Below are positions 37,668-62,648 of a DNA stretch of 64,000 bases, piece by piece; the stretch's first letter is position 1; each line of letters starts with the position of its first letter. Source of the stretch: Phyllobates terribilis (lineage: Eukaryota); contig NW_027362769.1 in assembly GCF_046119375.1 (NCBI RefSeq), forward strand, positions 370,574,001-370,638,000. The letters run 5' to 3'. The notes under the pieces were generated by a model that had not been told where the DNA came from, made no database searches, and worked only from the letters and a program-made list of their open reading frames with translations. The position numbers and the translations under genes were made by a program.

Positions 37668-37712
<45 letters not shown>

Positions 37713-40700: not shown

Positions 40701-43700
40701 CTGCGTCATTGGAGGGACTTGTCAATCAATAAGTCAAAAGACGCCGCCGAGCCGACTCTTCTCCCCACTGCATGGTCTTTCTTTTCTCTTATTCTCTATC
40801 TTCTCACTGCTTTGACCCTTGTCCATAGCTTTTTCCCTTCTCCGCGGTGATCAGTCTCCTCTTCGCTGACCGGTCTTTCTCTTCTCTTCCCTGCCCGCTG
40901 ACCGGTCTCTTTCTCTTCTCTTCCCTGCCCGCTGACCGGTCTCTTTCTCTTCTCTTCCCTGCCCGCTAACCGGTCTCTTTCTCTTCTCTTCCCTGCCCGC
41001 TGACCGGTCTCTTTCTCTTCTCTTCCCTGCCCGCTGACCGGTCTCTTTCTCTTCTCTTCCCTGCCTGCTGATCGGTCTCTTTCTCTTCTCTTCCCTGCCT
41101 GCTGATCGGTCTCTTTCTCTTCTCTTCCCTGCCCGCTGACCGGTCTCTTTCTCTTCTGTTCCCTGCCCGCTGACCGGTCTCTTTCTCTTCTCTTCCCTGC
41201 CCGCTGACCGGTCTCTTTCTCTTCTCTTCCCTGCCCGCTGACCGGTCTCTTTCTCTTCTCTTCCCTGCCTGCTGATCGGTCTCTTTCTCTTCTGTTCCCT
41301 GCCCGCTGACCGGTCTCTTTCTCTTCTCCCCGCTTTCACCCTTCACCTTTTCCATAGCTCATTTTTCCAATCATGTTTTCTTTGGAATAAAGGAGCGTTG
41401 CAAGGTAACACCGTCTGTCTGTAATACCCGAACCTGTTGGGATTTCATGTTGCTCGGATGATGGGTTCCTGTACAGTCATCTCCTTATTTCCCGCCATGA
41501 GCGTTACTGCCTGTTGCAGCCGCAGTCCGCCGTCTCTCCGAGCTATGTGCTTAGGGAAACATGGCAATTGAAGCTTCTTGCACATCTTCCTTTTTCCTTT
41601 ATTTTTTTTTAAAGAGGCTTTTGATGTTACTTAAGCGACCAATTCGTCCTCTGTTCTGTCTCTGTCTCCCATCATCCACTGGCCATGTCAGTAGTCCCAG
41701 AGCCTGGCCAGCCTCCTCCTAGCTGCCAGGATCTCCAGGCGCTGCACCACGTCACCGTCATTCGCCGGATATCTGAGCAGGTAGGAGATGGTTCTTGGCG
41801 AATGTGGGCTACCAGTGTGGCCACTGGACCCGGGTCTTGCAAATCTTTTTGATTTACTCTATTCACTACTATTTTCTTTGTGATCGAATATGAAAATTGA
41901 ATCATCCTTGCAGTAGGTCTTTATTAATGTCTTTGTTTTGTGCCTACTGCTCCTGCTCTGCATTGGAGCTATGAACGCAAAACGGTAAAAATAAAATCAA
42001 GACCGTTTTTAAAGACTGAGGCTTTCTTGTTGGTTCTTAATATATAATATATATTAATTCAAATGTTTTTCTTCCTCCTTAGACGACCTCCTCAGTAACC
42101 TTGTCCGCACACCAGCCTTGTCCAAGCAGCTGAGCCAACCACCTCCGAGCCTGGAGGCCGAGAGCGAGCGAATCTGTGCCCTGGCCCTCGAGTGCCTCTC
42201 GCATCTCTTCAGTTGGATCCCCCTCTCCGCCAGCATCACCCCCTCGCTGCTCACCACAATCTTTCACTTTGCCCGCCTGGGATGTGACGCCCGGTCACGA
42301 AGGACTCACACTGTCAACAGCACCAATGCTGTCACCCTAAACGGGGGCGGCAGCAATAGCCCCCCGTTACCATTGACATTGCCAACCTCTCAGCAAGACT
42401 GTAACAGACTGGGGGTCTTAGCGATGTCCTGTATTAACGAACTGATGTGTAAGAACTGTGTTCCCCTGGAGTTCCAGGAATACCTGTTACGCGTGTGCCA
42501 GCAGACCTTCTACCTCCTGCAGAGGATCACACGGGAGACCAACGCCCACAGCGTGCGCAGCCGGCTGGAGGAGCTGGACGAGAGGTAAGGCCAGGACCCT
42601 GTCCCCATGGAGACACACAGGTCTGCAGAAGAGCTGCATACACGGATCAGGCCCAGCATGCAAACTGCTGACTGTCATGGTGGACAATATTATCTGGTGA
42701 TAATGGCGACTGTCAGGTTGGATGCTAATAGGCAGCAAGTGATCAGTCAGTGCTTGTCACGCATTGCAAGCAGGAAAAATGGGCAAGCGGAAGGATCCGA
42801 GTGGCTGACAAATGACCTATGTCTAAATGACTGTTTAAGAGTGTCTCCAAAATGGCAGGTCTAGTGGGGCGTGTCTGCTGCTATCTGGTAGGAGGTGTCG
42901 TGTGCTGCTGTGGGGGGGAATGTCTGCCATCGGGGCCTGGCTTTGTGGGGGTGGGTTGTCTGCCGCCGGGGAATGGCGTCGGGGCGGGGGTCTGCCGCCG
43001 GAGCCTGGCGTTGTGGGGGTGGGTTGTCTGCCGCCGGGGAATGGCGTCGGGGCGGGGTGGGTTGTCTGCCGCCGGGGAATGGCGTCGGGGCGGGGTGGGT
43101 TGTCTGCCGCCGGGGAATGGCGGGGGGGGGGGGTGTCTGCGCCTTGGGCATGGCGTCGGGGGGGGGGGGGGGGTTTCTGCGCCCGGGGCCTGGCGTTGGG
43201 GCGGGGTGTCTGGCACTGGGGCTGGAATTGGGGGGTAGGAGGGGGGTCTGCCGCCGGGGCCTGGCGTTTTGGGGTGTCTGCCGCTGGGGCCTGGCCGAAC
43301 TTAGTCCAAGGAAAGGCAACTGCTGATACTGTGACGGGGTGATGGGTGTCCGGGGCTCCTCAATATTTGGCGCCCATCTGATCCAGCCACACAGAAGATT
43401 GACCGTGTCCCAAACTGCTGAGAAAGTGTCGGATCCTGCAGAGAAGCATCAGACCTGGACCGTGGAGCAATGGAAGGAGGCGTCCAGTCTGATGAATTCA
43501 CATTTCCTATTCCATCATGTTACCTGGAGAAGTGATGGCCGTATGTGAACACCGATTGGCTGGCTGTAACAAAACCATAGGGGGCTGCAGAAGCCCCTGC
43601 TGTACAGAACAAGGCTCCGTAGTTAGGAAAAGCATCATTCAAAGATGGAGTAAGAGGGAATTGGGCAGGAGACGGGTCACGGACCGGGTATGGGTCGCAC

Positions 43701-46700
43701 CGCTCTTCTGCAGCCTACAGACATGCAGCAACGTCCCTCCTTGCCGACTCTTATAAGCCGCAGAGCGTTTCACTCTTACATCCCATGTTAACCTCTTCTT
43801 TCCGTCTTTACAGTTATGTGGAAAAGTTTACAGACTTCCTTCGACTCTTCGTCAGCGTCCACTTAAGGAGGATAGAGTCCAACGCCCAGTTCCCTGTGGT
43901 TGAGTTCCTGGCACTACTCTTCAAATACACCTTTCACCAGGTAACGCGGTGGTCTCGAGTGGGAGCGCAGCATTGTGACTGCACTGAACTTCGGATGCCG
44001 ACATATTGCCTCCATTGGCCCAGTATTAGATCTAGAGACCAGCCTTGGTTCAGACTCTGCGCTGGACCTGGGGAGGGGGAGTATAGCTCTGTTTAGATTG
44101 GTGAAAGAGAAACAAATGGGCTGGCGACCACAATAGATTTCTTATGGTGATAACGTATTTGTCTCTGCAGCCGACACATGAAGGTTACCTCTCGTGTCTT
44201 GACATCTGGGCGCTCTTCTTAGACTATCTAACAAACAAGATAAGAAACCGGCTAGAAGACAGAGAGACTGTTATGGGCAGGTAAGGGGGTTTCATGATCA
44301 TGTGGCTGTAAGGTTGGGGGCTTACCAGTGGACATATGAGGGGGGGGGGGGGTCACTACTGGCGGTCTAATATTTCGTCCCTCGTAGGTACGAAGACGCC
44401 CTGGTGCTGCTGCTCACCGAGGTGCTGAACCGGATCCAGTTCCGCTACAACCAGACGCAGTTGGAGGAGTTGGATGACGAGACGCTAGATGACGACGTAC
44501 GTATGGCGGTACATTCACTGCCGCTGCTGCTTTTGCACATTTGGTGCTGAAAGTAACTTACCACAGATGCCAGATATACTCTCCTGCAGTACCTAACGTG
44601 AAAGTTCTCAATTTTTTTTTGTAATTTTTTTTCTGCTGACCAGTATGTTACATCTTGCTTTACAGCAGCAGACGGAGTGGCAACGATATCTACGTCACAG
44701 CTTAGAAGTGGTAGCCAAAATCATGGAATTGCTCCCAACGCATGCCTTCAGCACTTTGGTAAATACCTGGTTGAGACACTTTATACATATCATCTTTTAC
44801 TGATTGTCTTGCTTGAGTTGTATCCTGTATTATACTCCAGAGCTGCACTCACTATTCTGCTGGTGCAGTCACTGTGTACATACATTACATTACTGATCCT
44901 GAGTTACATCCTGTATTATACTCCAGAGCTGCACTCACTATTCTGCTGGTGCAGTCACTGTGTACATACATTACATTACTGATCCTGAGTTACATCCTGT
45001 ATTATTCCCCAGAGCTGCACTCACTATTCTGCTGGTGCAGTCACTGTGTACATACATTACATTACTGATCCTGAGTTACATCCTGTATTATACTCCAGAG
45101 CTGCACTCACTATTCTGCTGGTGCAGTCACTGTGTACATATATTACATTACTGATCCAGAGTTACCTCCTGTATTACACTCCAGAGCTGCACTCACTATT
45201 CTGCATCCATACATTACCTATCCTGTATTATACTCCGGCGCTGTGCAGCTTATGTTTACAGTCCTGTCGCCCATCACTGTATAGTGCATGCCTCTCCGAT
45301 CATTTACAGACATTGAGATTTCCATTCTTGTAGACTGTTGCAAAAAAAAACAGCAAAAAACTCTTCTGTGCCATAATGGAGCCGGCGAGAGGACGTCTGG
45401 AGCCGGAGTGCACTGACTCTTTCCATTTTATTCATTTTCCGTTCTGCGGGGTTTCAGCTCTTCCATTATCTCGTCTCGGACACTTTGCATTTTCAATCCA
45501 TTTTCCAGCATGACCATTTTTGTAAATTGGACAATTTTTTTCTAATTGACCTTTTCTGAATTTCCTTTAATTTGCTTTTTTAATACTCCATTTGGGAAAC
45601 GTCTTTATTCCGGCCGGTGATTTCAGTGGTTGGGATTGTAGTAGGACATGAATATTTATCAGAGGTGGACGAGCTGTTAGTGCCCGGCAGTCCCCTTTTA
45701 TTCTATGGATTTCCTACTAAGCTGACAACATGGTGTCCTACTGCTGAGATCCCCAGCAATAAGCTGTAGTCTGCAGGGAGACAAGGGACAAGTGTCCAGT
45801 TACCCTGCAGTGACTCTGCAGGAAAAATTAAGTATTTCACAAAGTCCTCCAGAACAAGGTGCGTGCTGACTAATTCAGGTCCTGAAAGGTGTCCCTCCTC
45901 TCACCCATAAATCAGGTGTAGTGGAGTTATGACAGTTGTCAAGTTTTTCTTTTTTTTTGCTTCTTTGCAGTTCGCTGCTCTGCAGGAGAATTTGGACGTC
46001 TATCTGGGGCTGCAGCGGTGTATAGTGAACACAGGGGCAGGTATGTATCGCCGCCAACTGGTAAGACTCCCGGTATAAGATGAGCTTTAATGCTGGTTAA
46101 AGGGATGTAATAATTTTAAAGGGGTTGGCCACTTTCCAGCCAAATGTTTACAGTGCGGTTGTGCTGCAGTCACAAACGCCTTGTAGTTTTTTTTTGTTTT
46201 TTTTTTACCCCTTCACTGCATTTTAAGGCCTCCTACTGCCCACTGTTCAGGGGTATAGGGTGGCTCTTCTGTGGCCAAAGTGGCACCTGTCATGTGATTT
46301 ACTCTACTGCTTCCTCAGCTCTGCCCCCTTTTCTGCACAGGTGCCGAAGGCGTTAAAACCGCTCCCCTGCCCAGGCGCCGGAGGGGTTAAAAGCGCTCCC
46401 CTGCCCAGGCGCCGAGCGATTTCGCTGCCATTGAGAAGGATAAATAATTAGGAAGCAGTTTCACGACCGCCACAATCTTAAAGGCAGCGAAGGCTTAAGA
46501 AGTGGGGGTCAGGACACTACACTTTTAGGACACTGTAGCGTTCCACGGGTTGCAGCGGATAACTGTTATTTCTGCTCTTACAGAACAGCGTCTCAATGTG
46601 ACTGCGGAGAACGACTGTCGCAGGCTGCACTGCTCCTTGCGTGACCTCAGCTCCCTCCTTCAGGCTGTCGGCCGTCTCGCCGAGTACTTCATCGGGGATG

Positions 46701-49700
46701 TGTTCGAAGCACGCTTCAATGATGCCCTTACAGTTGTGGAAAGGTAATTGCTGATATGACACTGGCTTAAAGGGGATGTCCACTACTTTTATATTGAGAG
46801 GGTGACACCAGGAACCCCTATTAATTAGTGGTTGGATGTAATGAGCTGCACAGCCCCAACTGTATGGAGACTGCGACCAGTACTACATCTGACCTTGCTT
46901 GAATGAATGGGAGTGGTTCTGCTGTACCCCGCTGTGGCCACTATATAGTAGTCCAAGCTCTGCTGTTCCTCAACTGATCACATCCGGACGCCTCCGTCAT
47001 CTGATATTGATGACATAGCTCGATGATCATATCAAAATAGTGGACAACCCCTTTAAAGAAAAAAGCAATGCATGTACTGCAGATTACATTGACGTTTTCC
47101 TTCATCCTCTTCCTCTCTCTTCTCCACCAGATTGGTCAAAGTCACGTTATACGGCTCCGAGATCAAACCGTACAATATGGAGACTGCGGTGCCGTCAGTG
47201 CTGAAGCCGGACCTGGTGGATGTGTGAGTATTTCATCCCTGTACCATTCCTTCACCACAGATGAGGGCTTTTCTGTATTCTTGGCAGATGGCTGGCGGCC
47301 TGGCATGCTGATGTATTATTGATGAGTATAAATTACAGATCCGCCGATAGGTTTGTACATAATATCTGTGGTGTTTTCCTTTGGCAGCCATGCCCAGTCC
47401 CTGGCAGCATTACAGGCCTATTCACACTGGCTCGCCCGATTCTACAGCGAGGTGCAGCACCAGAACCCTCAGCAGTTTGTGTCTATCATATCCTCAGCGA
47501 TGGAGGCGCTACCCCCACTCATCAGCACAAAGGTGAGCCATGGTGGCAGTGGTTGGGATTAAAGTGGCGTTCCCACAAAATCCTGCAGTGCCGATCTAAG
47601 TGCTGCGATCCCTTCACATTTCCAGTGCAGTGAATGGGGGCAGCAGAGTGTACCCTTTTTTAAACATGTCTTCTGGGGGTGATCCTGAAGACCCACCCCT
47701 CCACCCTCGCTAACTTTTGAGTCTTTCTAGGTACAAGAAAAGCTGCTGCTCTCTGCTTGCCATCTGCTGGTCTCTGTGGCCACAACGGTGCGGCCCGTAT
47801 TCCTCATCAACATTCCTGCCGTCCAGAAGGTTTTCAGCCGCGTGACAGACAGCTCTGCGCAGAGACTTCCAGAGGAGGTGAGCTTTCTCATTCGTGCTCG
47901 CTGCACCCGGTGCTTTCTCATTCGTGCTCGCTGCACCCGGTGCTTTCTCATTCGTGCTCGCTGCACCCGGTGCTTTCTCATTCGTGCTCGCTGCACCCGG
48001 TGCTTTCTCATTCGTGCTCGCTGCACCCGGTGCTTTCTCATTCGTGCTCGCTGCACCCGGTGCTTTCTCATTCGTGCTCGCTGCACCGGTTCACATCAGG
48101 ACTTTTGTACTCTAGTGATGCAGCGGCCATAGTGTCCAGTTATATCTTCATGCATACATGTTAGACTGGCAGCAGCTGGGCTTGGTGCCCCTAGGGAAGT
48201 AGTTCTGATGTACGGGTACTACGATCATCCCTGAGCTGGTGGTCCCAGATACCTGTTGTCTCCATGGTGTGTTTTGCGTCCCTATGTCATGCACTAGACA
48301 TAATCAGTTTTGCATGTAGTCTTCCATTAATCTGAGCAGCCTACGAGCCCTGTCCGCACTGGCTGCATCAATCTTGTAAGATTGCAGCAGAGTCCAGCAA
48401 AAAGATTCAGAGAACTCGGGTTCAGCAGTCACTTTGGTAGTCTGTGCATACCAGACCAGAGCCTGTGTACCTGGATGAAGGGGGTGCAGAGTAGAGACCT
48501 GTGATAGGTGACTTTCTGTAATTTAGGGATTGGGGAGATGATAAACACCAGCCGCATCCACATTGACTTCGGTCTGTTTACCAAGCCTCCATCAACCTGT
48601 CTTATAATGATCCTGTCACACTCGAGATCTAGCAAGTGATTTGTGCGCTCTTGGAATATCTACATCCAACGTCTGATAATTCTATAACGATGCCCGATCC
48701 TCCATTGTAAATGATTCCTTCTCCGCCTCCTGCAGGCTCAGGTGCTGCTGTGTCGCGCTCTGTCGAACGTCCTCCTTCTCCCATGGCCAAATGTCCCGGA
48801 GGGCGAGCAGCAGTGGGCAGAGCGCTCTAGTCATCATGCCAACCTCCTGAACAGCTTGACCAGAGACTACCGCCATCTGAAGGGTACGGCGCCTCCTCAG
48901 AGGAAGGGGCAGCTCGAAGCCAGTGAGTATCCGAACTCCACCGAATCCTTGCATTCCTCTGTGATCTTGCACTACAGCACCTGTTTTTTTAATGGTTCCA
49001 TATTTTGCTCACCTACATTTCTTTATTCTACTCTTCCGTAGCCAAGCGTGTCATTTGTCAGACCCTGGGTGTGTTGAAGGACATCGTGGAGAACATCTCC
49101 GGAGAGGGCACCAAATCTCGGCAGATCTGCTACCAGTCTATGCAGGAGTCGGCTCAGCTCTCCCTCGCTCTTTTCCCAGCATACATTCACCAGTCAGGTA
49201 TGTAGATCCTGTGGTTGATGTTGTTTTGTGTTTTTTAGGAGCTGATATTCAAGTCCACTGTGATGGATTTTTGAAGGCTGCAGCCAATCGGTGGCTGCTG
49301 ATTGGCTGCAGTGGTCACATGACATTGGTTATGCTATTAGGCTGGCTGAGGAAACAGGACTCGGAGCAGCGTCGGTCGGCCCCTTTTAAGATCCAGTGAA
49401 GGGTTATGAGATTCACTTAAAGGTGTTATATCCTTTCCTTTCTTCAGGAGCACACCACTCCTCTGTCTCCTTGCCGGTGGGCAGTGCCCTCCTGAAGATC
49501 GACAGTTCGTGCTAGCGTTATGGTTGCACCACTGGTCTGAACTGTGTGTTTCGGGGAGCACAAGGGCACTGACGCTGTGGGGGGCGTGGGGATCAGGGAA
49601 TATTAAATCTCTTTAGTAGCGGGCACAGCGCAGGCTGCAGCAGTCAGCTGCTGCCTCCTGTGCCCCGCTGATCCCCTGCTGCTGCTCCCCCAGACCTCCT

Positions 49701-52700
49701 ACCACGCAGAGCCACAGTATATACAGGGAGATAGTATTCGGACTATAAGACGCACCCCCCACTTTCCTCCAAAATTTTGGAGGAAAAAAGTGCGTCTTAT
49801 AGTCCGAAAAATACGGTATCTATTTTTTAATGATCTGTACACCCTTTTAGCCCCTTAGTAGATCAACACTAATGTCTATGAATAGACCTGGTAAATACAA
49901 GCAATAGGCGATATTATCAGGGGAGTGATTTAATGTAGAAAATCCTTTTACAAAAGTAACACCTCAGTCGCGATCGCGCTGTGCCCTTGGTTCTAGCGGC
50001 CGTGTCATGTACGATAAGTAAGTGCCATGTTGTGAAATTAGAACAGGTCTCGTTGGGAGAAGGATGTGCGCTCCGTACATAAAGGGATATTCTGCTTTTT
50101 TTTTCTGGGCTGGTGGGCTACTCCGGGACTTGTCGCTTTACACATTTGTTCTTTTTGTGCACATCTGATTTTTTTTTTTTTTCTTCTTGCTTAGATGTGA
50201 CCGAGGAGATGCTCAGCTTTTTCTTGGCCTTATTCCAAGGACTCCGGGTACAAATGGGGGTGCCCTTTACCGAGCAGATTATACAGACCTTCCTCAACAT
50301 GTTTACCAGGTAACTACACCCAGCCCTACACCCATTATTATTTATCCCATGGTGATCGGGTGCTTATTATGTCACGCCGTGCCCACAGGGAGCAGCTGGC
50401 AGAAAGCATCCTGCAGGAGGGCAGCGCCGGCTGCCACGTGGTGGAGAAGTTTCTGAAGATCCTGCAGGTTGTTGTCCAGGAGCCTGGTCCAGCCTTCAAG
50501 CCTTTCCTGCCGAGTATCCTGTCCCTGTGCATGGAGCAGCTCTACCCCATCATCGCAGAGGTGAGAAGTGCTCATTGTTGAGAAGTTTTGCTCTTCTTCA
50601 ATTCTTGTTTCTTTCCATTTACTAACTTTCTGCCTATGCAGCGTCCGTCCCCCGATGTGAAAGCCGAGCTGTTCGAGCTGCTCTTCCAGCTGCTGCATCA
50701 CAACTGGAGGTATTTCTACCGAGCCTCTGTTTTAGCCAGCGTGCACCGAGAAGGGGGCGACGAACCCATGGAGAACCAGGCTCAGTTCGTCGGTGTCATG
50801 CAGGTCAGTGCTCAACTAAACCAATTCTATCTTGTCCTTCCCAAGAAGTCACCAGAACACCCCTTTAAATTCCTTTCCTCTAGACGGCATACTATTACGT
50901 CATAGTTTGAGTACTGGTATATCAGGAGCTGATCTTCCACACCACCCAACAGCAGCAACCAGAGGCTAGCTCCGATCGCTGCTGTTTTACCCCTTAAAAT
51001 GCTGCTTTCAATATGCGACAGCTGCATTTTAAGTGGTGTGTCTGTCCTGGCACCCTTCGCCCACGAAGTGATGGCGGCGTTCCAATGAAGGATTGCAGTA
51101 TATAGAAAAAGCAAATCAAATGATCCTATGGTCTAAAAAAAAAATATAAAAATTCAAATTTCCACCAGAACAATACAAATATAACTACAGCTCGATCTGC
51201 AAAAAGTGAACCCTCGCCCCCAGCTCCGGGGACGGAAAAATAAAGTTATGGGTCTTGGAAATTGGCAGCACAAACCAATTTTATGAGGATAATAATAATA
51301 AAAAAAAAAAGTTTGGTATTGTTGTTAATGAATGCTGTAGGAAAACAAAAGCACAAAAAAAAAGTCGGAATTGCATGTTTTTTTTTTTTTTAAATTTCAC
51401 TTGTAATGTACTGAAAAAAAAATTCTAAGGTGATACGAACGGTGTCATAAAAAAACTACAACTTGTCCCTAAAACGGATTGTGGTACTGCTATGTCGACG
51501 GAAAAATATAACAGTTATGGTTCCTGGAAAGAGGGGAGGGAAACAAAGTGCAAAAATGAAAATTTGCTGCAGCGGGAAGGGGTTAATGCACATCATAGAA
51601 GGATTATAATGTAACCTCCAAGAACCAGCAAAAAAAAAAGTTCTTTGTCAAATCTGTGACTGAGAATCAAGTCCTTCATCTTCTCCTATGTTTCCTGCAG
51701 GCATTTGGTCAGTCATTTCTGCAGCCAGATATTCATCTTTTCAAGCAAAACCTTGGCTATCTGGAGACCCTGAACAGCAAACACAAGTTGTACCATAAGG
51801 TGAGACGCAACGTTTAAGTCTGGGATACTCAAGGTTTCAGTCGGAGTGTAAATTCCTCCCTACACATTAGACTATTGTTGGCTGAACCCACCTTTTTTGA
51901 CTGGTTCAGAAGACTGTGAGATGACGATTGTCGGGTGAGATGACGATTGTCGGGTGAGATGACGATTGTCGGGTGAGATGACGATTGTCGGGTGAGATGA
52001 CGATTGTCGGGTGAGATGACGATTGTCGGGTGAGATGACGATTGTCGGGTGAGATGACGATTGTCGGGTGAGATGACGATTGTCGGGTGAGATGACGATT
52101 GTCGGGTGAGATGACGATCGTCGGGTGAGATGACGATCATGCATGTCCGATTTAAGTCTACCAATCATTTTGTTCTCCCAGACTTAAACCGCTGGCCGAC
52201 AGTCGACAGCTTTCTCATAGAGCACACAGGAGCGCTCAGCCTTTGTATGGGAAAGGTGGCCAAGATGACTGGTGGACGACAATGTGTATGGTGGTCTTAA
52301 ATGTAGAAGAGCCACTTGTCAGAAGTTTTGATGTGGGGCGGGATTATGTTTTGAGATCCCACTGATCACTAAAACTAAGGAGAAGAGATCAACCGGTAGC
52401 TGTTGTCCTTCAGCACTGAAGAGCGTCTTAATAAAAAGTTTTTTGACTCCGTCTTTAGTCTGAGGAGAGCGCCCCCTTCACTAAAGCAAAGGATGAGAAG
52501 CCATGTGGGGGGGGACAGCGCACTGATTAATACTGATTAAAACTGATGATATGTCACTAGGATATTTTTAAGTTTTCAGTTTTTTTTCTGGGAGGGAAGA
52601 AACTACTTGTAAAAAGAAACCGTTTTGAGCAAGTTTAGAATCTTTCCTCATCCCTTGTTGCGATGTGTAAAATTTTTCAGGCCGCGTTGGGGGCCTCAGT

Positions 52701-53412
52701 AAAGCACACTTGGCCCGGTTTTTGGCTGCAGGTTTCAAGTGATTGCGGTTTACCTGAAAAATTGGAACCTACATCGGTGCCTCGAACACCAGCCTGTTCT
52801 CCTCACCTCTCCACCCGCCTCTCATCACTTTTCTTTTCTACGTCTCTTCCAGAAACTGTTCCGGGCCATGATGCTGCCGCAGTTTGTCAGTGTTTTACTT
52901 CAGGTTCTTATCCACAAGTCCCATGATCTTCTTCAGGAGGAAATAGGCATCGCTGTCTACAACATGGCATCTGTGGACTTCAGCACTTTCTTCTCTGCCT
53001 TCTTACCCGAATTCCTCGCCGGCTGCCAGGGCCTTGATAGCGGTCAGAAGAACGTCCTTGCCCGTAATTTTAAGATGGAAAGGGTGAGGGCTACAGATTA
53101 TGTCTACAGAATGGAAAAAAAACAAAAACAAAATCATTGATTCTTAAAAGTGATGATCTTTGTTCTTCAGGAGCGCGGCGCTCCCCTGCCTCTCAGCTTC
53201 CTGCTTGCCGGGGGAGGCGTGCGCTCCTGATGATTGACTGTTCAGACCAGTGGCCTGAACACTGATGACCCCAAGAAATAAACCCCCCACTGTCTTCTCT
53301 CTCCTTCTAGGACCTGCCTTCGTTTACTCAGAGTGTTCATCGCTTGGTGAATGACCTCCGGTATTACCGACTCTGCAACGACAGCCTCCCCCCAGGAACT
53401 GTGAAACTGTGA
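31808..53412 (+). CDS. XPO6: Exportin-6 (importin-beta family actin/profilin nuclear export receptor), spliced CDS of 24 exons, 3423 nt, 1140 aa
   Basis: Manual splicing of 24 GT-AG-bounded exons gives an uninterrupted frame from MASEEASLRALESLMSEFFH to RYYRLCNDSLPPGTVKL*, matching recalled human XPO6. Exon sizes and phases match human except exon 7 (+48 nt) and exon 17 (-3 nt). Confidence 0.97.
32198..32552. mobile_element. T2/Kolobok-type MITE in XPO6 intron 1
   Basis: TTAA|AGGGGTTGTCC ... ACAACCCCT|TTAA; internal inverted GAGCTTTACTCA / TGAGTAAAGCTC. Confidence 0.8.
33438..33528 (+). CDS. XPO6: XPO6 exon 2 (91 nt)
   Basis: ttcccag|GCATCC...GAGATCG|gtgaga; ASEEASLRALESLMSEFFHTSTSNDRKREI. 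Confidence 0.96.
35146..35258 (+). CDS. XPO6: XPO6 exon 3 (113 nt)
   Basis: cacag|AGGCG...TTTGAG|gtgaga; EALLNNFAQQLGAWRFCFYFLSSSHNDYVLMYSLSVFE. Confidence 0.96.
35311..35893. mobile_element. T2/Kolobok-type MITE in intron 3 with an internal duplication of about 230 bp
   Basis: TTAA|AGGGGTTTTCCAGGACT ... AGTCCTGGACAACCCCT|TTAA; CAGAGGTCCAGCACCCC occurs twice. Confidence 0.8.
36110..36307 (+). CDS. XPO6: XPO6 exon 4 (198 nt)
   Basis: tacag|AACCTA...CTACAG|gtgagg; NLINKMWLGVPSEEKMEIR...DWPMFYHDFFTNILQ. Confidence 0.97.
36560..36719 (+). CDS. XPO6: XPO6 exon 5 (160 nt)
   Basis: tgtag|CTTATC...CTGACAG|gtagga; LIQTPSTTPLGLIMLKTASEELACPREDLSVARKEELRKLLLEQVPTVLGLLT. Confidence 0.96.
37249..37399 (+). 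mobile_element. 5'-truncated 3' end (about 150 bp) of the same L2 family as 59025-62648
   Basis: CTCATAGACTGTAAGCT...AAAGTGCTGCGGAATATGTTGGCGCTATAAAAATAA(ATT)n closely matches 62495-62648. Confidence 0.9.
37752..37829 (+). CDS. XPO6: XPO6 exon 6 (78 nt)
   Basis: tctag|GAGTT...GATGCCG|gtaagt; GVLESIWDKHSVTAATPPPSPTASDA. Confidence 0.96.
40866..41330. repeat. 34-bp pyrimidine-rich minisatellite (CTGACCGGTCTCTTTCTCTTCTCTTCCCTGCCCG)n, about 14 copies, intron 6
   Basis: Direct periodicity. Confidence 0.97.
42083..42584 (+). CDS. XPO6: XPO6 exon 7 (502 nt)
   Basis: ccttag|ACGAC...GACGAGAG|gtaagg; DLLSNLVRTP...LALECLSHLFSWIPLSASITPSLLTTIFHFAR...RSRLEELDES. Confidence 0.96.
42900..43290. repeat. 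G-rich degenerate repeat (GGGTGGGTTGTCTGCCGCCGGGGAATGGCGTCGGGGCG), intron 7
   Basis: Recurrent TGTCTGCCGCCGGGG units plus G11-G13 runs. Confidence 0.85.
43814..43940 (+). CDS. XPO6: XPO6 exon 8 (127 nt)
   Basis: ttacag|TTATG...CACCAG|gtaacg; YVEKFTDFLRLFVSVHLRRIESNAQFPVVEFLALLFKYTFHQ. Confidence 0.97.
44171..44280 (+). CDS. XPO6: XPO6 exon 9 (110 nt)
   Basis: ctgcag|CCGACA...GGGCAG|gtaagg; PTHEGYLSCLDIWALFLDYLTNKIRNRLEDRETVMG. Confidence 0.96.
44388..44496 (+). CDS. XPO6: XPO6 exon 10 (109 nt)
   Basis: tcgtag|GTACG...GACGAC|gtacgt; YEDALVLLLTEVLNRIQFRYNQTQLEELDDETLDDD. Confidence 0.96.
44666..44758 (+). CDS. XPO6: XPO6 exon 11 (93 nt)
   Basis: ttacag|CAGCAG...ACTTTG|gtaaat; QQTEWQRYLRHSLEVVAKIMELLPTHAFSTL. 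Confidence 0.95.
44822..45232. repeat. 86-bp tandem repeat, about 4.5 copies, intron 11
   Basis: TCCTGTATTATACTCCAGAGCTGCACTCACTATTCTGCTGGTGCAGTCACTGTGTACATACATTACATTACTGATCCTGAGTTACA periodicity. Confidence 0.95.
45971..46040 (+). CDS. XPO6: XPO6 exon 12 (70 nt)
   Basis: ttgcag|TTCGCT...GGGCAG|gtatgt; FAALQENLDVYLGLQRCIVNTGA. Confidence 0.95.
46584..46743 (+). CDS. XPO6: XPO6 exon 13 (160 nt)
   Basis: ttacag|AACAG...GGAAAG|gtaatt; QRLNVTAENDCRRLHCSLRDLSSLLQAVGRLAEYFIGDVFEARFNDALTVVE. Confidence 0.97.
46771..47052. mobile_element. T2/Kolobok-type MITE in intron 13
   Basis: TTAA|AGGGGATGTCCACTA ... TAGTGGACAACCCCT|TTAA. Confidence 0.8.
47131..47223 (+). CDS. XPO6: XPO6 exon 14 (93 nt)
   Basis: caccag|ATTGG...GGATGT|gtgagt; LVKVTLYGSEIKPYNMETAVPSVLKPDLVD. 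Confidence 0.96.
47388..47532 (+). CDS. XPO6: XPO6 exon 15 (145 nt)
   Basis: tggcag|CCATG...ACAAAG|gtgagc; HAQSLAALQAYSHWLARFYSEVQHQNPQQFVSIISSAMEALPPLISTK. Confidence 0.96.
47731..47877 (+). CDS. XPO6: XPO6 exon 16 (147 nt)
   Basis: ttctag|GTACAA...GAGGAG|gtgagc; VQEKLLLSACHLLVSVATTVRPVFLINIPAVQKVFSRVTDSSAQRLPEE. Confidence 0.96.
47881..48088. repeat. 30-bp minisatellite (TGCTTTCTCATTCGTGCTCGCTGCACCCGG)x7 abutting the exon 16 donor
   Basis: Near-perfect tandem copies. Confidence 0.97.
48736..48922 (+). CDS. XPO6: XPO6 exon 17 (187 nt)
   Basis: ctgcag|GCTCAG...GAAGCCA|gtgagt; AQVLLCRALSNVLLLPWPNVPEGEQQW...QRKGQLEA. Confidence 0.96.
49042..49197 (+). CDS. XPO6: XPO6 exon 18 (156 nt)
   Basis: ccgtag|CCAAG...CAGTCAG|gtatgt; KRVICQTLGVLKDIVENISGEGTKSRQICYQSMQESAQLSLALFPAYIHQS. 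Confidence 0.96.
49738..49816. mobile_element. pogo/Tigger-like MITE end (short hairpin)
   Basis: TTCGGACTATAAGACGCAC ... GTGCGTCTTATAGTCCGAAAAATACGG|TA. Confidence 0.55.
50195..50309 (+). CDS. XPO6: XPO6 exon 19 (115 nt)
   Basis: gcttag|ATGTG...TTTACCAG|gtaact; DVTEEMLSFFLALFQGLRVQMGVPFTEQIIQTFLNMFTR. Confidence 0.97.
50389..50560 (+). CDS. XPO6: XPO6 exon 20 (172 nt)
   Basis: ccacag|GGAGC...GCAGAG|gtgaga; EQLAESILQEGSAGCHVVEKFLKILQVVVQEPGPAFKPFLPSILSLCMEQLYPIIAE. Confidence 0.97.
50642..50803 (+). CDS. XPO6: XPO6 exon 21 (162 nt)
   Basis: Perfect TACTAAC branch point at 50620-50626; atgcag|CGTCCG...ATGCAG|gtcagt; RPSPDVKAELFELLFQLLHHNWRYFYR...QFVGVMQ. Confidence 0.97.
50866..51586. mobile_element. 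Probable piggyBac-like non-autonomous element in intron 21
   Basis: TTAA-flanked ends (TTAATTCCTTTCC ... GGGAAGGGGTTAA) with an A-rich interior. Confidence 0.4.
51701..51799 (+). CDS. XPO6: XPO6 exon 22 (99 nt)
   Basis: ctgcag|GCATTT...CATAAG|gtgaga; AFGQSFLQPDIHLFKQNLGYLETLNSKHKLYHK. Confidence 0.97.
51918..52138. repeat. 19-bp minisatellite (GAGATGACGATTGTCGGGT)n, about 11.5 copies, intron 22
   Basis: Direct periodicity. Confidence 0.97.
52853..53083 (+). CDS. XPO6: XPO6 exon 23 (231 nt)
   Basis: ttccag|AAACTG...GAAAGG|gtgagg; KLFRAMMLPQFVSVLLQVLIHKSHDLLQEEIGIAVYNMASVDF...ARNFKMER. Confidence 0.97.
53311..53412 (+). CDS. XPO6: XPO6 exon 24 coding part (102 nt incl. TGA)
   Basis: ttctag|GACCTG...AAACTGTGA; DLPSFTQSVHRLVNDLRYYRLCNDSLPPGTVKL*. 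Confidence 0.97.
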   Translation, partial: DLPSFTQSVHRLVNDLRYYRLCNDSLPPGTVKL

Positions 53413-57684: not shown

Positions 57685-58214
57685 TTACGTTCACACATCT
57701 GTGTCTATTTTTACTTTTTACATCCATGTAAAAAAAAGAGCATTTTTTTTTTTACATAACTGAAGAAGGTAAACTGAACTTTTTTTTTTTTTTTTATCCA
57801 TTCTCTTAATGAATTACTTAAACAGAGATGGAAAACTAATGTAAAAAAAACCAGCACTTGGACATGTCCAAACAAAGGATGTGTGAATGCAGCCTAAGGC
57901 TATGTGCACACAGACTTTTTTTCTTTTAGGTCAGTTTTCAGACATTCTTCCTTTGGGAAGTTGTTTTGAAAAGCTTTTCGTTTCCTGGAATTGCTTTGAG
58001 GAGTTTTTTCAAGCGTTTTTTTTTTTTAAGCCTTTTAATTGGACATCACCTTTTTTGGAGTATGTTCCATCAGGAGCGACTCCTTGAGAAGTTATGCGGG
58101 GGCATTTATGCATATAGCATTTATGCATACTTTATCGAAGTGCCATAATTTAGCAAAGTGCCCTGGCAGTTAGAAAATGGCATTGCTAATATTCATCTTT
58201 CTTCTCTTCTTACA

Positions 58215-58735
58215 GGTATATATTTTTCACTGCTTGTGTGATCTGTCCTGAAAACTGCATTATATCTCCATGCAATGCTCTGCAGCCTATCAATTTCTGG
58301 TATATATTTTTCACTGCTTGTGTGATCTGTCCTGAAAACTGCATTATATCTCCATGCAATGCTCTGCAGCCTATCAATTTCTGGTATATATTTTTCACTG
58401 CTTGTGTGATCTGTCCTGAAAACTGCATTATATCTCCATGCAATGCTCTGCAGCCTATCAATTTCTGGTATATATTTTTCACTGCTTGTGTGATCTGTCC
58501 TGAAAACTGCATTATATCTCCATGCAATGCTCTGCAGCCTATCAATTTCTGGTATATATTTTTCACTGCTTGTGTGATCTGTCCTGAAAACTGCATTATA
58601 TCTCCATGCAATGCTCTGCAGCCTATCAATTTCTGGTATATATTTTTCACTGCTTGTGTGATCTGTCCTGAAAACTGCATTATATCTCCATGCAATGCTC
58701 TGCAGCCTCTCAATTTCTGGTATATATTTTTTCAC
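58215..58735. repeat. 84-bp tandem repeat, about 6.2 copies
   Basis: GGTATATATTTTTCAC recurs every 84 bp from 58215 to 58719. Confidence 0.97.
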
Positions 58736-59024
58736 TCCTCTAGCTTTTTTATTCCATGATACTTAAAGGTCATCACACTTACTTTAAGAGTTTATGATCC
58801 ATGCCGAGTTTACTAGTCTGTTTTTTTTTTTTTCCCTGCACTTTATGGTCTCCTGTTGTCTTTTAAGCTAGTGATTGATTGTTAATGAGTTAAATCTGTG
58901 CAGATCTAAGCAGATACGTCCCTATATATTGAGACTTAGTTAAGGGGAGGCATTTATGCATATAGCATTTATGCATACTTTATCGAAGTGCCATAATTTA
59001 GCAAAGTGCCCTGGCAGTTAGAAA

Positions 59025-62000
59025 ATGGCAGTTGGACAGGGCAGGAGACAGGTAAGACATGCAAGACAATTAAACAAACTTGCTTCCAGGTCATCTTTTT
59101 GGCAAACAGTATTCACCATTTGTATCTGTGCCATTTATACTCTGGTTGCTACAATCATCCACATTCACCGTTCTCCCACAAATGCGGCACACTTCATCCA
59201 TATTAATCCCTCACTCCTCTCTTCTCCTATGTACAGTTGTCATGCTCTCTTCACAATGTTATACCACGCAGATCCATTCATTCCCACCATACAACGCAGG
59301 AAACGCTCTCACAAATCACTCAATCATCTGCTCACTCTCTGTATCTTCCTTCTATTAGTCGCAGGTGATATTTCTCCCAACCCAGGACCCTCCAGTAATA
59401 ATAACACTAACTCTTTCCCTGTTACATTCAGAAACCCTGCTAATCTCATTAATATTCCCTGCATATCTTCTGTCTCATTCAACTGTGCCCTTTGGAATGC
59501 ACGCTCAGCTTGTAATAAACTCTCTTACATCCATGACTTTTTCCTCTCTAATTCCCTCAACCTTCTGGCTCTCACTGAAACCTGGATCCAGCAGTCGGAC
59601 ACCACCGCCGCTGCAGCTCTCTCCTATGGTGGCCTACATTTCTCTCATACCCCGCGACCTGACAACAGATCAGGTGGAGGTGTTGGTCTGCTTCTTTCAA
59701 CAAAATGTACTTTTCAGGTTATCCCCCCTGTACCCTCCCTTATCTTCCCATCCTTTGAGGCCCACACAGTCAGACTCTACTGGCCCTTCTCCCTGCGAGT
59801 GGCGGTTGTCTATCGCCCCCCAGGTCCCCCCCGTCAATTCCTGGATCACTTTGCTGCCTGGCTTACAAATTTTCTATCCTGCGACATCCCCACGATAATC
59901 ATGGGAGACTTTAACATCCCAATTGGCGATCCTCTTTCCCCATCTGCCACGCATCTTTTATCATTAACCTCCTCCTTCGGCCTCTCACAGCTTGCTAATT
60001 CTCCTACACATGAGGACGGGAACACATTGGACCTGATCTTCTCCCGGCTTTGCTCAGTACATGACTTTACTAACTCTCCCCTTCCACTCTCTGACCATAA
60101 TCTTCTTTCATTCTCTGTCAAGAACTGTGACTCTACTCAAGACACTCCCACCGTCCACACTTATAGAAATTTACGCGCCATTAACACCCAGAAATTTATA
60201 AAAAGGTTGCAATCATCATTGGCCCCAATCTCCTCCCTCTCATGTCCCGAATCTGCATTGAAGCATTATAACAAAATAATGCTATGCGCCCTGGATGAAG
60301 CCGCACCTCCTACACAAAGAACAATTCGGCATAGACGGCGACAACCCTGGCACACGCCTCAAACACGTCTTCTCCAGAGGTACTCCAGGTGCGCTGAACG
60401 GCTGTGGAGAAAATCAAATCTGCCCGAAGATTTCCTCCACTATAAATTTATGCTGAAAACATATAACTCTGCCCTTCACCTCTCCAAACAAACCTACTTT
60501 AACAACCTCATCATCTCACTTTCCAATAATCCTAAACGACTCTTTGACACGTTTCATTCTCTCCTCAATCAAACAGCACAGGCCCCGACCACCGACCTCA
60601 GCGCTGACGATCTGGCTAACTATTTCAAAGAAAAAAATTGACCATATCCGACAGGAAATTTTCTCCCAATCCCCAAATGTTATGCATGCTCCCCCCCGCC
60701 ACATTGTATCTTGCTCATTTTCTGACTTCGAACCAGTCACGGAAGATGAAGTGATCAGGCTCCTTGCATCTTCTCGCCCTACCACCTGCACCAGCGACCC
60801 TATTCCCTCACATCTCCTTCAGTCCCTTGCTCCAGCTGTCACCTCTCACCTAACTAAAATTTTCAACCTTTCCCTCTCATCTGGTATCTTTCCCTCTTCT
60901 TTTAAACACGCCAGCATACAACCATTACTTAAAAAACCATCCCTCGACCAGAACTGCACGGCCAACTACAGACCTGTTTCCAATCTTCCCTTTATCTCTA
61001 AACTCCTGGAACGCCTGGTCCACTCCCGTCTAATCCGCTATCTCTCAGACAACTCTCTTCTTGACCCTTTACAATCTGGTTTCCGCTCTTTACATTCTAC
61101 TGAAACTGCCCTCACTAAAGTCTCTAATGATCTACTAACAGCTAAATCTAATGGTCACTACTCCCTGCTGATTCTCCTGGATCTCTCTGCAGCATTCGAC
61201 ACTGTGGATCACCAGTTCCTTCTCTCTATGCTCCGCACTATTGGCCTCAAGGACACGGTTCTCTCCTGGTTCTCCTCCTATCTCTCTGACCGCTCCTTCT
61301 CTGTGTCTTTTGCCGGCTCCTCCTCCTCCCTACTTCCTCTTACTGTCGGGGTTCCTCAAGGATCAGTCCTAGGCCCCCTTCTTTTCTCCTTATACACCGC
61401 TCCTATTGGACAAACAATCAGTAGATTCGGTTTTCAGTACCATCTCTATGCTGATGACACCCAATTATACACCTCTGCTCCGGACATCACCCCTGCATTA
61501 CTACAAAAGACCAGTGATTGTCTTTCTGCTGTGTCTAACATTATGTCCTCCCTCTACCTAAAACTGAATCTGTCAAAAACTGAACTCCTCGTCTTTCCTC
61601 CCTCCATTAATCTACCTGTGCCCGATATTGCCATCTCCGTTTGTGGCTCAACCATTACTCCCCAGCTACAAGCCCGCTGTCTTGGGGTCATTTTTGATTC
61701 AGATCTTTCTTTCACTCCTCACATCAAATCACTCGCTCGTTCATGTCATCTACACCTCAAAAACATCTCAAGAATCAGGACTTTTCTCACCTTTGACTCG
61801 GCAAAAACTCTTACTGTCGCTCTTATTCATTCTCGTCTTGACTATTGCAACGCTCTACTAATCGGTCTCCCTCTTACTAAACTCTCCCCTCTCCAATCCG
61901 TCCTGAACGCAGCAGCCAGGATCATATTCCTCGCCAACTGCTACTCAGATGCCTCTTCCCTGTGCCAGTCATTGCATTGGTTGCCCATCCAATATAGAGT

Positions 62001-62648
62001 TCGTTTTAAACTTATCACGCTTACCCACAAAGCGCTCCATGCTTCAGTACCCCCCTACATCTCCTCCCTTGTCTCAGTCTACCACCCTACACGTGCCCTC
62101 CGTTCTGCAAATGACTTGAAACTAAAATCCTCCATAATCCGAACTTCCCACTCCCGTCTCCAAGATTTCTCGCGTGCTGCGCCAATTCTCTGGAATGCAC
62201 TACCCAGGACAGTTCGATTAATTCCCAATACCCACAGTTTCAAGCGAACCCTAAAAACACATTTCTTTAGACTGGCGTATCACCTAAACACACTCTGTCC
62301 ATCCCAGCTTTCCCCCATATTAAAATCTTCTTCAACTTCGGGTTCAAACCAACCATGCACATAAAAGCCTCTGTCAGGACTGCACACATACTGGCAGGCG
62401 ACCAGTCCATGTATTATTATTTATCCTATTCAGTATATCAAGGCTGCATTATACAATATATGTACTTTTTACCTTTTGTGTCTCCCCCACTTCCTCATAG
62501 ACTGTAAGCTCGCGAGCAGGGCCCTCACTCCTTTCGATATGAGATATGCTTATTCTGTATTGTCTGTATAAGTCCCCCCTAAAATTTGTAAAGTGCTGCG
62601 GAATATGTTGGCGCTATAAAAATAAACTATTATTATTATTATTATTAT
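59025..62648 (+). mobile_element. L2-clade (CR1 group) LINE, near-intact ORF2 (2A-like peptide + APE endonuclease + RT), 3' stem-loop and (ATT)n tail
   Basis: APE motifs WNARS, LTETW, GDFN, LDLIFS, SDH; RT motifs [13 protein letters not shown] and YADD (61447-61458). The two ORFs join if one A is removed from the A7 run at 60631-60637. Stem-loop at 62592-62615. The 5' boundary is uncertain. Confidence 0.95.

What the first reader, a model, noticed from the sequence alone, without database searches (positions are those of the whole stretch)
59298..59390. 2A-like (StopGo) peptide with hydrophobic leader at the N-terminus of the L2 ORF2
Seen: the ORF reads RKRSHKSLNHLLTLCIFLLLVAGDISPNPG-P about 30 aa before the APE domain, and an apolar stretch (FWQTVFTICICAIYTLVATII) lies further upstream. 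Established: viral 2A peptides (helical segment + D(V/I)ExNPG-P) cause ribosomal skipping, and 2A-like motifs have been reported upstream of APE in non-LTR retrotransposons (Odon et al. 2013). Here the consensus E is replaced by S. Inference: ORF2 may be translated as a short, possibly membrane-targeted leader that is separated from a Pro-initiated APE-RT of about 991 aa, or the S variant may tune skipping to partial or none.
Basis: partly seen in the sequence, partly recalled or inferred. Interest (0 to 1): 0.7.

Follow-up and report, generated by a model that had tools for sequence, protein, structure and literature searches.

The report
Frog LINE leader with skip-like peptide
A young frog jumping gene (an L2 LINE) has one reading frame that opens with a greasy, signal-like stretch followed by a ribosome-skipping-like motif already catalogued in Xenopus; the motif is strictly conserved across frogs and likely throttles or only partly frees the copying enzyme, which is untested, and this particular copy carries a frameshift.

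Summary
The peptide is there at the stated coordinates (R92-P122 of a frame starting at 59025). It belongs to a young single-ORF L2 family (about 99% identical copies, no ORF1). The serine in place of the 2A glutamate is not decay or local tuning: GDISPNPGP is the standing form in frog L2s (25 of 27 frog-type homologues that reach it; no amino-acid change at saturated silent change between four families in this genome), and three Xenopus L2 entries with this exact motif are already in print, untested. Published tests are split: two E-to-S peptides were inactive in lysate, while Leu-rich ones were machine-classed as skipping or protein-reducing in cells. Best reading: a weak StopGo/stall peptide that limits ORF2 protein, behind a signal-like N-terminal helix that likely brings the ribosome to the ER. 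That helix recurs in 9 of 22 motif-bearing relatives against 2 of 34 without; I did not find this link in print, but this scan noted it before in another genome (e1-10146537). Correction: this copy has a one-base frameshift at 60631-60637, so the 991-aa product exists only in sister copies.

The parts
58092..59024 (+). 5' untranslated region: monomer-type repeat (93-nt unit at 58090-58182 and 58938-59030) around an 84-nt tandem array; no ORF1
   Evidence: the window and 7 of 20 fetched copies begin at this point with unrelated flanks; longest ATG frame in the stretch is 25 aa; 23 upstream ATGs
58215..58739 (+). 84-nt tandem array, copy number variable between copies
59025..59387 (+). 121-aa leader of the single ORF (ATG in strong context, ends at the Gly of NPG)
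   Evidence: in frame and intact up to the motif in 30 of 30 copies picked by the stretch ending at 59051
59097..59162 (+). hydrophobic helix 1 (aa 25-46), signal-peptide- or signal-anchor-like, preceded by 6 K/R and no acidic residue
   Evidence: role inferred
59196..59264 (+). conserved leader block (I-x-PSLL ... S-x-H-x-L, predicted short helix aa 72-82)
   Evidence: identity 0.50 for aa 58-66; pN/pS 0.28-0.69
59295..59363 (+). basic cluster (aa 91-97), K-S-x-x-H and Leu-rich helix (aa 101-113): upstream part of the 2A-like peptide
   Evidence: (S98, L105, L110 invariant in 17 of 17 rows)
59364..59390 (+). 2A-like core GDISPNPG-P (E replaced by S); predicted skip site between 59387 and 59388
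   Evidence: skipping itself not tested
59391..59477 (+). variable linker with an RNPxNLI block
   Evidence: identity 0.14 for aa 123-136, 0.46 for aa 137-146
59478..60098 (+). APE endonuclease domain
   Evidence: PF03372 E 8.9e-14
60631..60637 (+). run of 7 A that shifts the frame in this copy (6 A in 20 of 20 sister copies)
60931..61692 (+). reverse transcriptase domain, in the second frame (stop at 62362-62364)
   Evidence: PF00078 E 2.7e-35
62365..62648 (+). 3' untranslated region and (TTA)n tail

Best explanation
This is the 2A-like peptide of a single-ORF frog L2 LINE, fixed as GDISPNPGP across frogs, and it likely acts inside the ribosome tunnel as a weak StopGo/stall signal that limits how much free APE-RT enzyme is made. 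Shown: one ORF, no ORF1, a 121-aa leader with two hydrophobic helices, and amino-acid-level conservation that covers about 25 residues and stops dead after the final proline. Inferred: helix 1 emerges first and would recruit SRP, docking the ribosome on the ER; at the Leu helix + GDISPNPG the ribosome would pause, and a minority of events would release the leader and go on to a Pro-initiated 991-aa cytosolic APE-RT, while the rest would end in fall-off, quality-control decay or an uncut membrane-bound product. The pair would so replace the damping that an ORF1 gives in two-ORF LINEs.
For: Conservation pattern typical of a nascent-chain element: identity 0.96 in the nonamer, 0.70 in the Leu helix, 0.51 in the K-S-x-x-H block, 0.14 right after the proline, 0.69 in the APE start (17 frog rows). 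Between four families of this genome the nonamer has pN 0.00-0.01 at pS 0.68-0.84 in 6 of 6 pairs, so the constraint is on the peptide, not the RNA. 27 of 27 frog-type homologues that extend far enough carry the motif, 25 with S, 2 with A. Same position and loss of ORF1 as in Odon 2013. In the 2026 reporter screen, 8 of 21 listed D[IV]S-x-NPGP 20-mers were classed as skipping (5), fall-off (1) or protein-reducing (2), all 8 with a Leu-rich helix like this one, and restoring E in three of them did not raise the class. Signal-like N-termini in 9 of 22 motif-bearing versus 2 of 34 motif-less relatives, p 0.002. Precedent for 2A plus ER targeting: sea-urchin NLR 2A signals.
Against: Both E-to-S peptides tested in reticulocyte lysate were inactive, and non-conservative changes there gave none or very low activity (Odon 2013). 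In viruses position 14 is almost only E, with H the one rare variant flagged, and E14 stacks on a tunnel base (Li 2026). 13 of the 21 S-type peptides in the screen were plain non-skipping, including 3 of 6 with GDISPNPGP; classes are machine calls from sort-seq in human cells, not blots, and the species of origin were not visible. Helix 1 is not conserved in sequence (identity 0.15, pN/pS 0.58-1.04), only in hydrophobicity; the relatives are not phylogenetically independent and many N-termini are gene-model guesses. The basic cluster before helix 2 does not fit a simple stop-transfer topology. Alignment rows and copies were picked for having the motif, which inflates its identity (see full report). 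No expression or protein data.
Confidence: 0.55

Rival explanations
1. No ribosomal event: the leader is a membrane anchor or internal signal, the Leu helix is an h-region with small residues (A/S-G) before a peptidase site, and GDISPNPGP is a post-translational cleavage or binding motif.
For: Basic n-region, hydrophobic h-region and A/S-G c-region are all present; E-to-S peptides were inactive in lysate; only 2 of 41 motif-bearing relatives have E.
Against: Signal peptides do not need nine invariant residues after the h-region (established knowledge, recalled); the invariant residues are exactly those of the StopGo core and conservation ends at its proline; relatives with E in the same place skip (STR-51_SP).
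Confidence: 0.18
2. Skipping is efficient in the native (frog, ER-docked, full 121-aa) context and its purpose is to release the leader as a small membrane protein with its own job, an ORF1 substitute.
For: The leader has its own conserved block far outside tunnel range of the skip site (aa 58-80), kept from Ascaphus to dendrobatids; longer native context raises 2A activity in published tests.
Against: No Pfam family, no atlas hit above the bar, low-confidence model without a compact fold (pLDDT 57); FAST-like features not met.
Confidence: 0.15
3. The motif is an inert relic of a once active 2A.
For: Odon 2013 offer decay of active 2As as the simplest reading; the key E is absent.
Against: Zero amino-acid change at saturated silent change across families and the same nonamer across ten labelled taxa cannot be relic behaviour.
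Confidence: 0.05
4. The Leu-rich stretch is a by-product of a pyrimidine-rich splice acceptor (CAG/G at 59362-59365) paired with the donor-like site at 59051/59052, and splicing removes the leader.
For: Both sites look strong by eye, a donor-like site sits at the same place in all four families, and gene models in other frogs splice into this acceptor.
Against: Family C has no such AG in several copies and silent codon changes run through the motif; the two sites are out of phase with each other; 30 of 30 genomic copies run on past the donor and 29 of 30 have the leader before the acceptor, the exception being a 5' truncation at 59353.
Confidence: 0.05

Closest known systems
Xenopus tropicalis 2A-bearing L2 elements CR1-L2-1_XT, L2-2_XT, L2-3_XT, L2-4_XT (Odon et al. 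2013, PMC3708506; sequences seen in supplementary file 2 of Rao et al. 2025, PMC12338488)
   Same: Same K-S-x-x-H + Leu helix + A-G-D-[IV]-S-P-N-P-G-P (three with GDISPNPGP, one with GDVSPNPGP), same place before APE, same E-to-S change; activity listed as N/A.
   Different: Different frog lineage and family; the upstream signal-like helix, the PSLL block and the monomer-type 5' region are not mentioned in the text I searched (no hit for signal, hydrophob, membrane in Odon 2013; Fig. 2A and supplementary file 1 could not be seen).
Viral 2A/StopGo peptides, class A (FMDV F2A; Li et al. 2026, PMC12846837)
   Same: Leu-rich helix, G-D-[IV], N-P-G-P.
   Different: S instead of the near-invariant E14; no measured skipping.
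Leucine-rich 2A-like peptides that reduce protein abundance (preprint PMC13405545, 2026)
   Same: [quoted passage not shown]
   Different: This 20-mer was not among the rows returned for DISPNPGP; native leader context untested.
Sea-urchin NLR '2A-like signal sequences' (Roulston et al. 2016, PMC4981915)
   Same: 2A-like peptide combined with signal-sequence character; cut and uncut forms go to different compartments.
   Different: There the 2A itself is the N-terminal signal of a host gene; here a separate hydrophobic helix lies about 55 residues upstream of an internal 2A-like peptide in a LINE.

Membership tests
2A/StopGo peptide (canonical) | Core (D/G/C/N)(V/I)ExNPGP | tested here: not met
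   S at the E position; S is not among the viral variants flagged
2A/StopGo peptide (canonical) | Upstream hydrophobic, Leu-rich helix | tested here: met
   aa 99-112 predicted helix, conserved Leu columns
2A/StopGo peptide (canonical) | Co-translational skip of the Gly-Pro bond | not testable with these tools
   needs a reporter; published look-alikes give mixed results
[quoted passage not shown] | Located in the N-terminal region of ORF2, upstream of APE | tested here: met
   30 aa before APE; 121 aa from the ATG, longer than the 40-80 aa quoted
[quoted passage not shown] | GD(V/I)xxNPGP with frequent substitution at E | tested here: met
   identical nonamer to three X. tropicalis entries
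[quoted passage not shown] | Usually no ORF1 | tested here: met
   shared 5' start in the window and 7 of 20 copies, longest ATG frame 25 aa in the window's 5' region
L2 clade LINE | APE + RT in one ORF | tested here: met
   Pfam PF03372, PF00078
L2 clade LINE | RT phylogeny places it in the L2 clade | not tested
   no Repbase set at hand; L2 rests on the peptide match to Repbase-named L2_XT entries and the short-repeat tail (recalled trait)
Signal peptide / signal anchor | Basic n-region followed by a hydrophobic h-region near the N-terminus | tested here: met
   6 K/R, 0 D/E in aa 1-24; top hydropathy window of the ORF at aa 29-47
Signal peptide / signal anchor | Predicted or measured SRP targeting and cleavage | not testable with these tools
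   no SignalP/TMHMM here; only Kyte-Doolittle windows
FAST-like / sORF2 small fusogens (10.1101/2025.03.14.642691) | Single transmembrane segment followed within 15 aa by 3 or more K/R; often MGxxxS/T start | tested here: not met
   two hydrophobic segments, one R in aa 47-61, start is M-A (criteria; sequence)

The most novel reading that the evidence does not exclude
Single-ORF L2-group LINEs from frogs to distant unnamed animals have replaced ORF1 with a membrane-inserted leader protein: a signal-like helix docks the translating LINE mRNA on the ER, a non-canonical S-type StopGo releases the leader there, and the conserved PSLL/SxHxL block tethers or sorts the RNP (ER/nuclear envelope, or vesicles), giving LINEs a membrane route to the nucleus or to other cells.
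Probability: 0.12. Interest if true: 0.8.

Novelty: new member of a known kind. Interest (0 to 1): 0.38.

Why it matters
The motif itself is catalogued, so the finding adds a member, not a kind. What it adds is evidence against the 'decayed 2A' reading of E-less LINE motifs: the S form is under strict purifying selection across frogs, so it does something that lysate assays may miss (stalling, fall-off, ER-coupled skipping). The family is young with many intact copies, which makes the open question of how single-ORF LINEs control and deliver their enzyme without ORF1 directly testable, including the unreported link to a signal-like N-terminus.

Tried and rejected
Expression and splicing from reads: no RNA holder listed; contigs of 7 of the 8 listed runs, none on record as RNA, cover the leader and bridge both splice-like sites and show no GT-AG joint (51 and 5 loose ends not shown); this is no evidence on expression. 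Spliced genomic copies: none in 30 + 30 loci. Leader as a known domain: Pfam only DUF2721 at E 0.23, below cut-off; atlas search with the Bombina homologue P0023 aa 1-100 gave no hit at 0.9 and no TM above 0.5; AlphaFold model too weak (pLDDT 57, pTM 0.29) for a fold search, which was not run. Within-family variation is uninformative: copies are about 99% identical, rows were filtered on the motif and frameshifts inflate the downstream counts. Intronic position in the host gene: rejected, exportin-6 ends at 53409. FAST-like fusogen: criteria not met. Literature searches without result: GDISPNPGP in main texts, 0 papers; non-LTR retrotransposon + signal peptide + ORF2 + L2 clade, 0; five-term search on transmembrane/N-terminal signal/2A-like returned only Roulston 2016; ZfL2 searches gave nothing on the leader (listings only). 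Search of earlier findings by sequence: nothing.

Full report
Observation. The window's + strand from 59025 reads a frame of 538 aa that begins MAVG, holds the apolar stretch at aa 25-46, the basic cluster at aa 91-97, a Leu-rich stretch at aa 101-113 and GDISPNPGP at aa 114-122 (59364-59390), then a 29-aa linker and an APE domain. By composition the loose motif GD[IV]xxNPGP would arise about 8e-7 times per such frame. The frame does not continue to the RT in this copy: a run of 7 A at 60631-60637 shifts it, and the RT lies in a second frame ending at 62364.

The element. A DNA search of the own genome (10.6 Gb) scored 40 of 1712 candidates, all 99-100% identical; a database protein labelled Phyllobates terribilis is 99% identical over the searched region, so the host is a frog. 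I fetched 20 of those 40 at length. All 20 have 6 A at the frameshift site; 11 have an open frame of 1112-1113 aa (121 + 991), 2 have 1103 aa with the same end, 7 are broken; all 20 carry the nonamer unchanged (my notebook's 12 of 20 was a miscount). Copies are 98.7-99.6% identical to the window's over the ORF. The window and 7 of the 20 begin at the same point (about 58092) with unrelated flanks, three more carry 7-8 tandem monomers behind one shared flank, and the window's 5' region has 23 ATGs but no frame over 25 aa. So the lack of ORF1 is not 5' truncation. The tail is (TTA)n. The insertion lies about 4.7 kb downstream of the exportin-6 stop codon, same strand. The L2 label rests on the match to Repbase-named Xenopus entries below; no RT tree was made.

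Conservation across frogs. A protein search with aa 85-330 gave 34 hits; 27 extend far enough upstream and all 27 have the motif, 25 as GDISPNPGP and 2 (Gastrophryne) as GDIAQNPGP; 2 start too close to the APE and 5 lack the APE start. Labels include Ascaphus, Discoglossus, Bombina, Rhinophrynus, Leptobrachium, Mantella, Gastrophryne and dendrobatids, plus one frog parasite record that I infer to be host contamination. In an alignment of 17 frog families mean pairwise identity is 0.96 in the nonamer, 0.70 in the Leu helix, 0.51 in the K-S-x-x-H block, 0.50 in an I-x-PSLL block at aa 58-66, 0.14 in the 14 residues after the proline and 0.69 in the APE start. Rows were required to match GDI..NPGP, so the 0.96 is partly built in; left out were near-duplicates and degenerate cases (P0038 with C, P0045 with Y for N, P0050 decayed, P0044 without motif). 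Three further families were pulled from the own genome. Over 26 copies of the four families, all 6 family pairs show pN 0.00-0.01 at pS 0.68-0.84 in the nonamer, against pN/pS 0.17-0.43 for APE, 0.28-0.69 for aa 58-80, 0.64-1.19 and 0.69-0.80 for the two leader spacers and 0.58-1.04 for helix 1 (uncorrected, silent sites saturated). Copies were chosen to contain GDISPNPG in frame; of the 36 loci of families B-D, 21 were used, and those dropped include two with single motif changes (L068, L073). The result still shows that the families differ at most silent positions of the motif and at none of its residues.

Wider relatives. Of the 150 best 50%-identity representatives, 41 carry a motif; of 71 with at least 60 aa upstream, 37 do. 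At the E position the 41 have S 23, A 5, N 4, H 3, C 2, E 2, D 1, K 1; 18 of the 41 are frog-type and the query carried S, so S is favoured, but among the 23 distant, mostly unnamed ones S still leads E by 9 to 2. E is thus the exception in this group.

The hydrophobic N-terminus. Helix 1 and the Leu helix are the two most hydrophobic windows of the intact 1112-aa frame, and 0 of 24 40-aa blocks of APE-RT reach the 2.0 threshold. Among proteins starting with Met and having a leader of fitting length, 12 of 25 with the motif and 2 of 34 without begin with a segment at or above 2.0; three of the 12 were frog proteins I added by hand after seeing them, and without them the count is 9 of 22 against 2 of 34, p 0.002. 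The rows are related, several N-termini are gene-model artefacts, two degenerate-motif proteins were counted as motif-less, and the threshold was mine. In family C and in the Ascaphus, Bombina and Leptobrachium proteins the Met sits directly before the helix, as in a classical signal peptide; in families A and D about 24 mostly basic residues precede it. AlphaFold on a 14-row alignment gives helices at 6-48, 72-82 and 99-112 and no confident fold.

What is in print. Odon 2013 (PMC3708506; parts 1-5 of 6 of the text read, figures not visible, supplementary file 1 not searchable, files 2-3 without NPGP) reports 2A-like sequences in X. tropicalis L2, a link to loss of ORF1, frequent change at E, and inactivity of the two E-to-S peptides tested. 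Rao 2025 (PMC12338488; passages and part 2 of supplementary file 2 plus search rows) lists four X. tropicalis L2 peptides, three ending in GDISPNPGP, activity N/A. Luke 2013 (PMC3894237; part 1 of 3 and passages) proposes that 2A replaces ORF1 as a damper of ORF2. Li 2026 (PMC12846837; abstract, sections 6 and 9) shows E14 near-invariant in viruses and stacked on a tunnel base. The 2026 preprint (PMC13405545; parts 2-3, section 14, first part of section 15, supplement searches) classes 8 of the 21 S-type 20-mers I retrieved with six search terms as skipping, fall-off or reducing, all Leu-rich, and 13 as non-skipping; three supplementary files too large to read may hold the species of origin. 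Roulston 2016 (PMC4981915; passages) gives the 2A-plus-signal precedent. The FAST-like criteria come from passages of 10.1101/2025.03.14.642691. I found no text linking an upstream signal-like helix to LINE 2As, within a library that lacks most subscription papers and Repbase reports.

Mechanism. Shown: single ORF, two hydrophobic helices, peptide-level constraint over roughly one tunnel length ending at the proline. From established knowledge (recalled): the tunnel holds some 30 residues, so helix 1 would be outside and available to SRP well before the motif is made, while the Leu helix is still inside at the Gly-Pro step. Inferred: ER-docked translation, a pause at the motif, and partition into a minor free APE-RT, released leader, and fall-off or uncut membrane-bound product. 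I put 0.55 on this weak-skip/throttle reading, 0.18 on a purely post-translational role, 0.15 on efficient release of a functional leader, 0.05 each on relic and splice by-product.

Splice-like sites. A donor-like site follows codon 9 (59051/59052) and has counterparts in all four families; families A and B also have a branch-point/pyrimidine/AG site before their tandem arrays (by eye, not scored). 30 of 30 genomic copies selected by the stretch ending at the donor continue unspliced with an intact leader; 29 of 30 selected by the stretch starting at the acceptor have the leader before it, the other is truncated at 59353 (some loci occur in both sets). No spliced form was seen.

Earlier findings. 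My reading was written down before look-ups by words. Note e1-10146537 (another genome) reaches the same reading and names the same papers; it is not independent support. Note e1-8659683 (a CR1 with retained intron-like leader) prompted the check for spliced genomic copies.

Verdict. Real and under selection, but a new member of a catalogued kind, already met by this scan elsewhere; the open, testable part is what the fixed S form and the signal-like helix do. Interest 0.38.

Noticed in passing
window 58092-59030: Monomer-type 5' region with an internal 84-nt array of variable length (0-20 units, 1-8 monomers among 20 copies); family B has the same layout with an unrelated unit of about 60 nt. 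Looks like a repeat promoter of the mouse-L1 kind (recalled comparison).
   Followed up: partly
window 58184-58215 and 59049-59057: Acceptor-like site (branch point, pyrimidine tract, CAG) after the first monomer in families A and B, and a donor-like site after codon 9 with counterparts in all four families; no spliced copy found, purpose unexplained.
   Followed up: partly
window 58218-58928: Summed contig depth over the 5' region is tens of times that over the ORF in four runs, also outside the collapsed array; may point to a separate abundant repeat made of this region. Depth of contigs is a poor measure.
   Followed up: no
window 58956-59021: A 21-codon upstream frame in the last monomer stops 3 nt before the ORF's ATG, in frame; the first monomer's ATG opens a 24-aa hydrophobic frame (58177). 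Neither seen in family B.
   Followed up: partly
window 59359-59898: A 179-codon stop-free +1 frame overlaps the motif and the APE start; probably a by-product of pyrimidine-rich codons; not checked in other families.
   Followed up: no
window 33438-53409: Complete exportin-6 gene on the + strand, 22 matched blocks to a Bufo protein; two stretches near 44126-44281 and 50387-50815 align across short introns.
   Followed up: partly
P0003, P0014 and many Discoglossus/Rhinophrynus gene models: Automatic gene models in other frogs splice unrelated exons into this leader or directly at the motif, so public 'host proteins' with GDISPNPGP are likely LINE fragments.
   Followed up: no
L068 and similar hits; hits on C1 near 1.075-1.078 Gb: Broken L2 copies recur dozens of times with the same open-frame length on small contigs or in one cluster, suggesting they ride inside a large tandem or segmental repeat.
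   Followed up: no
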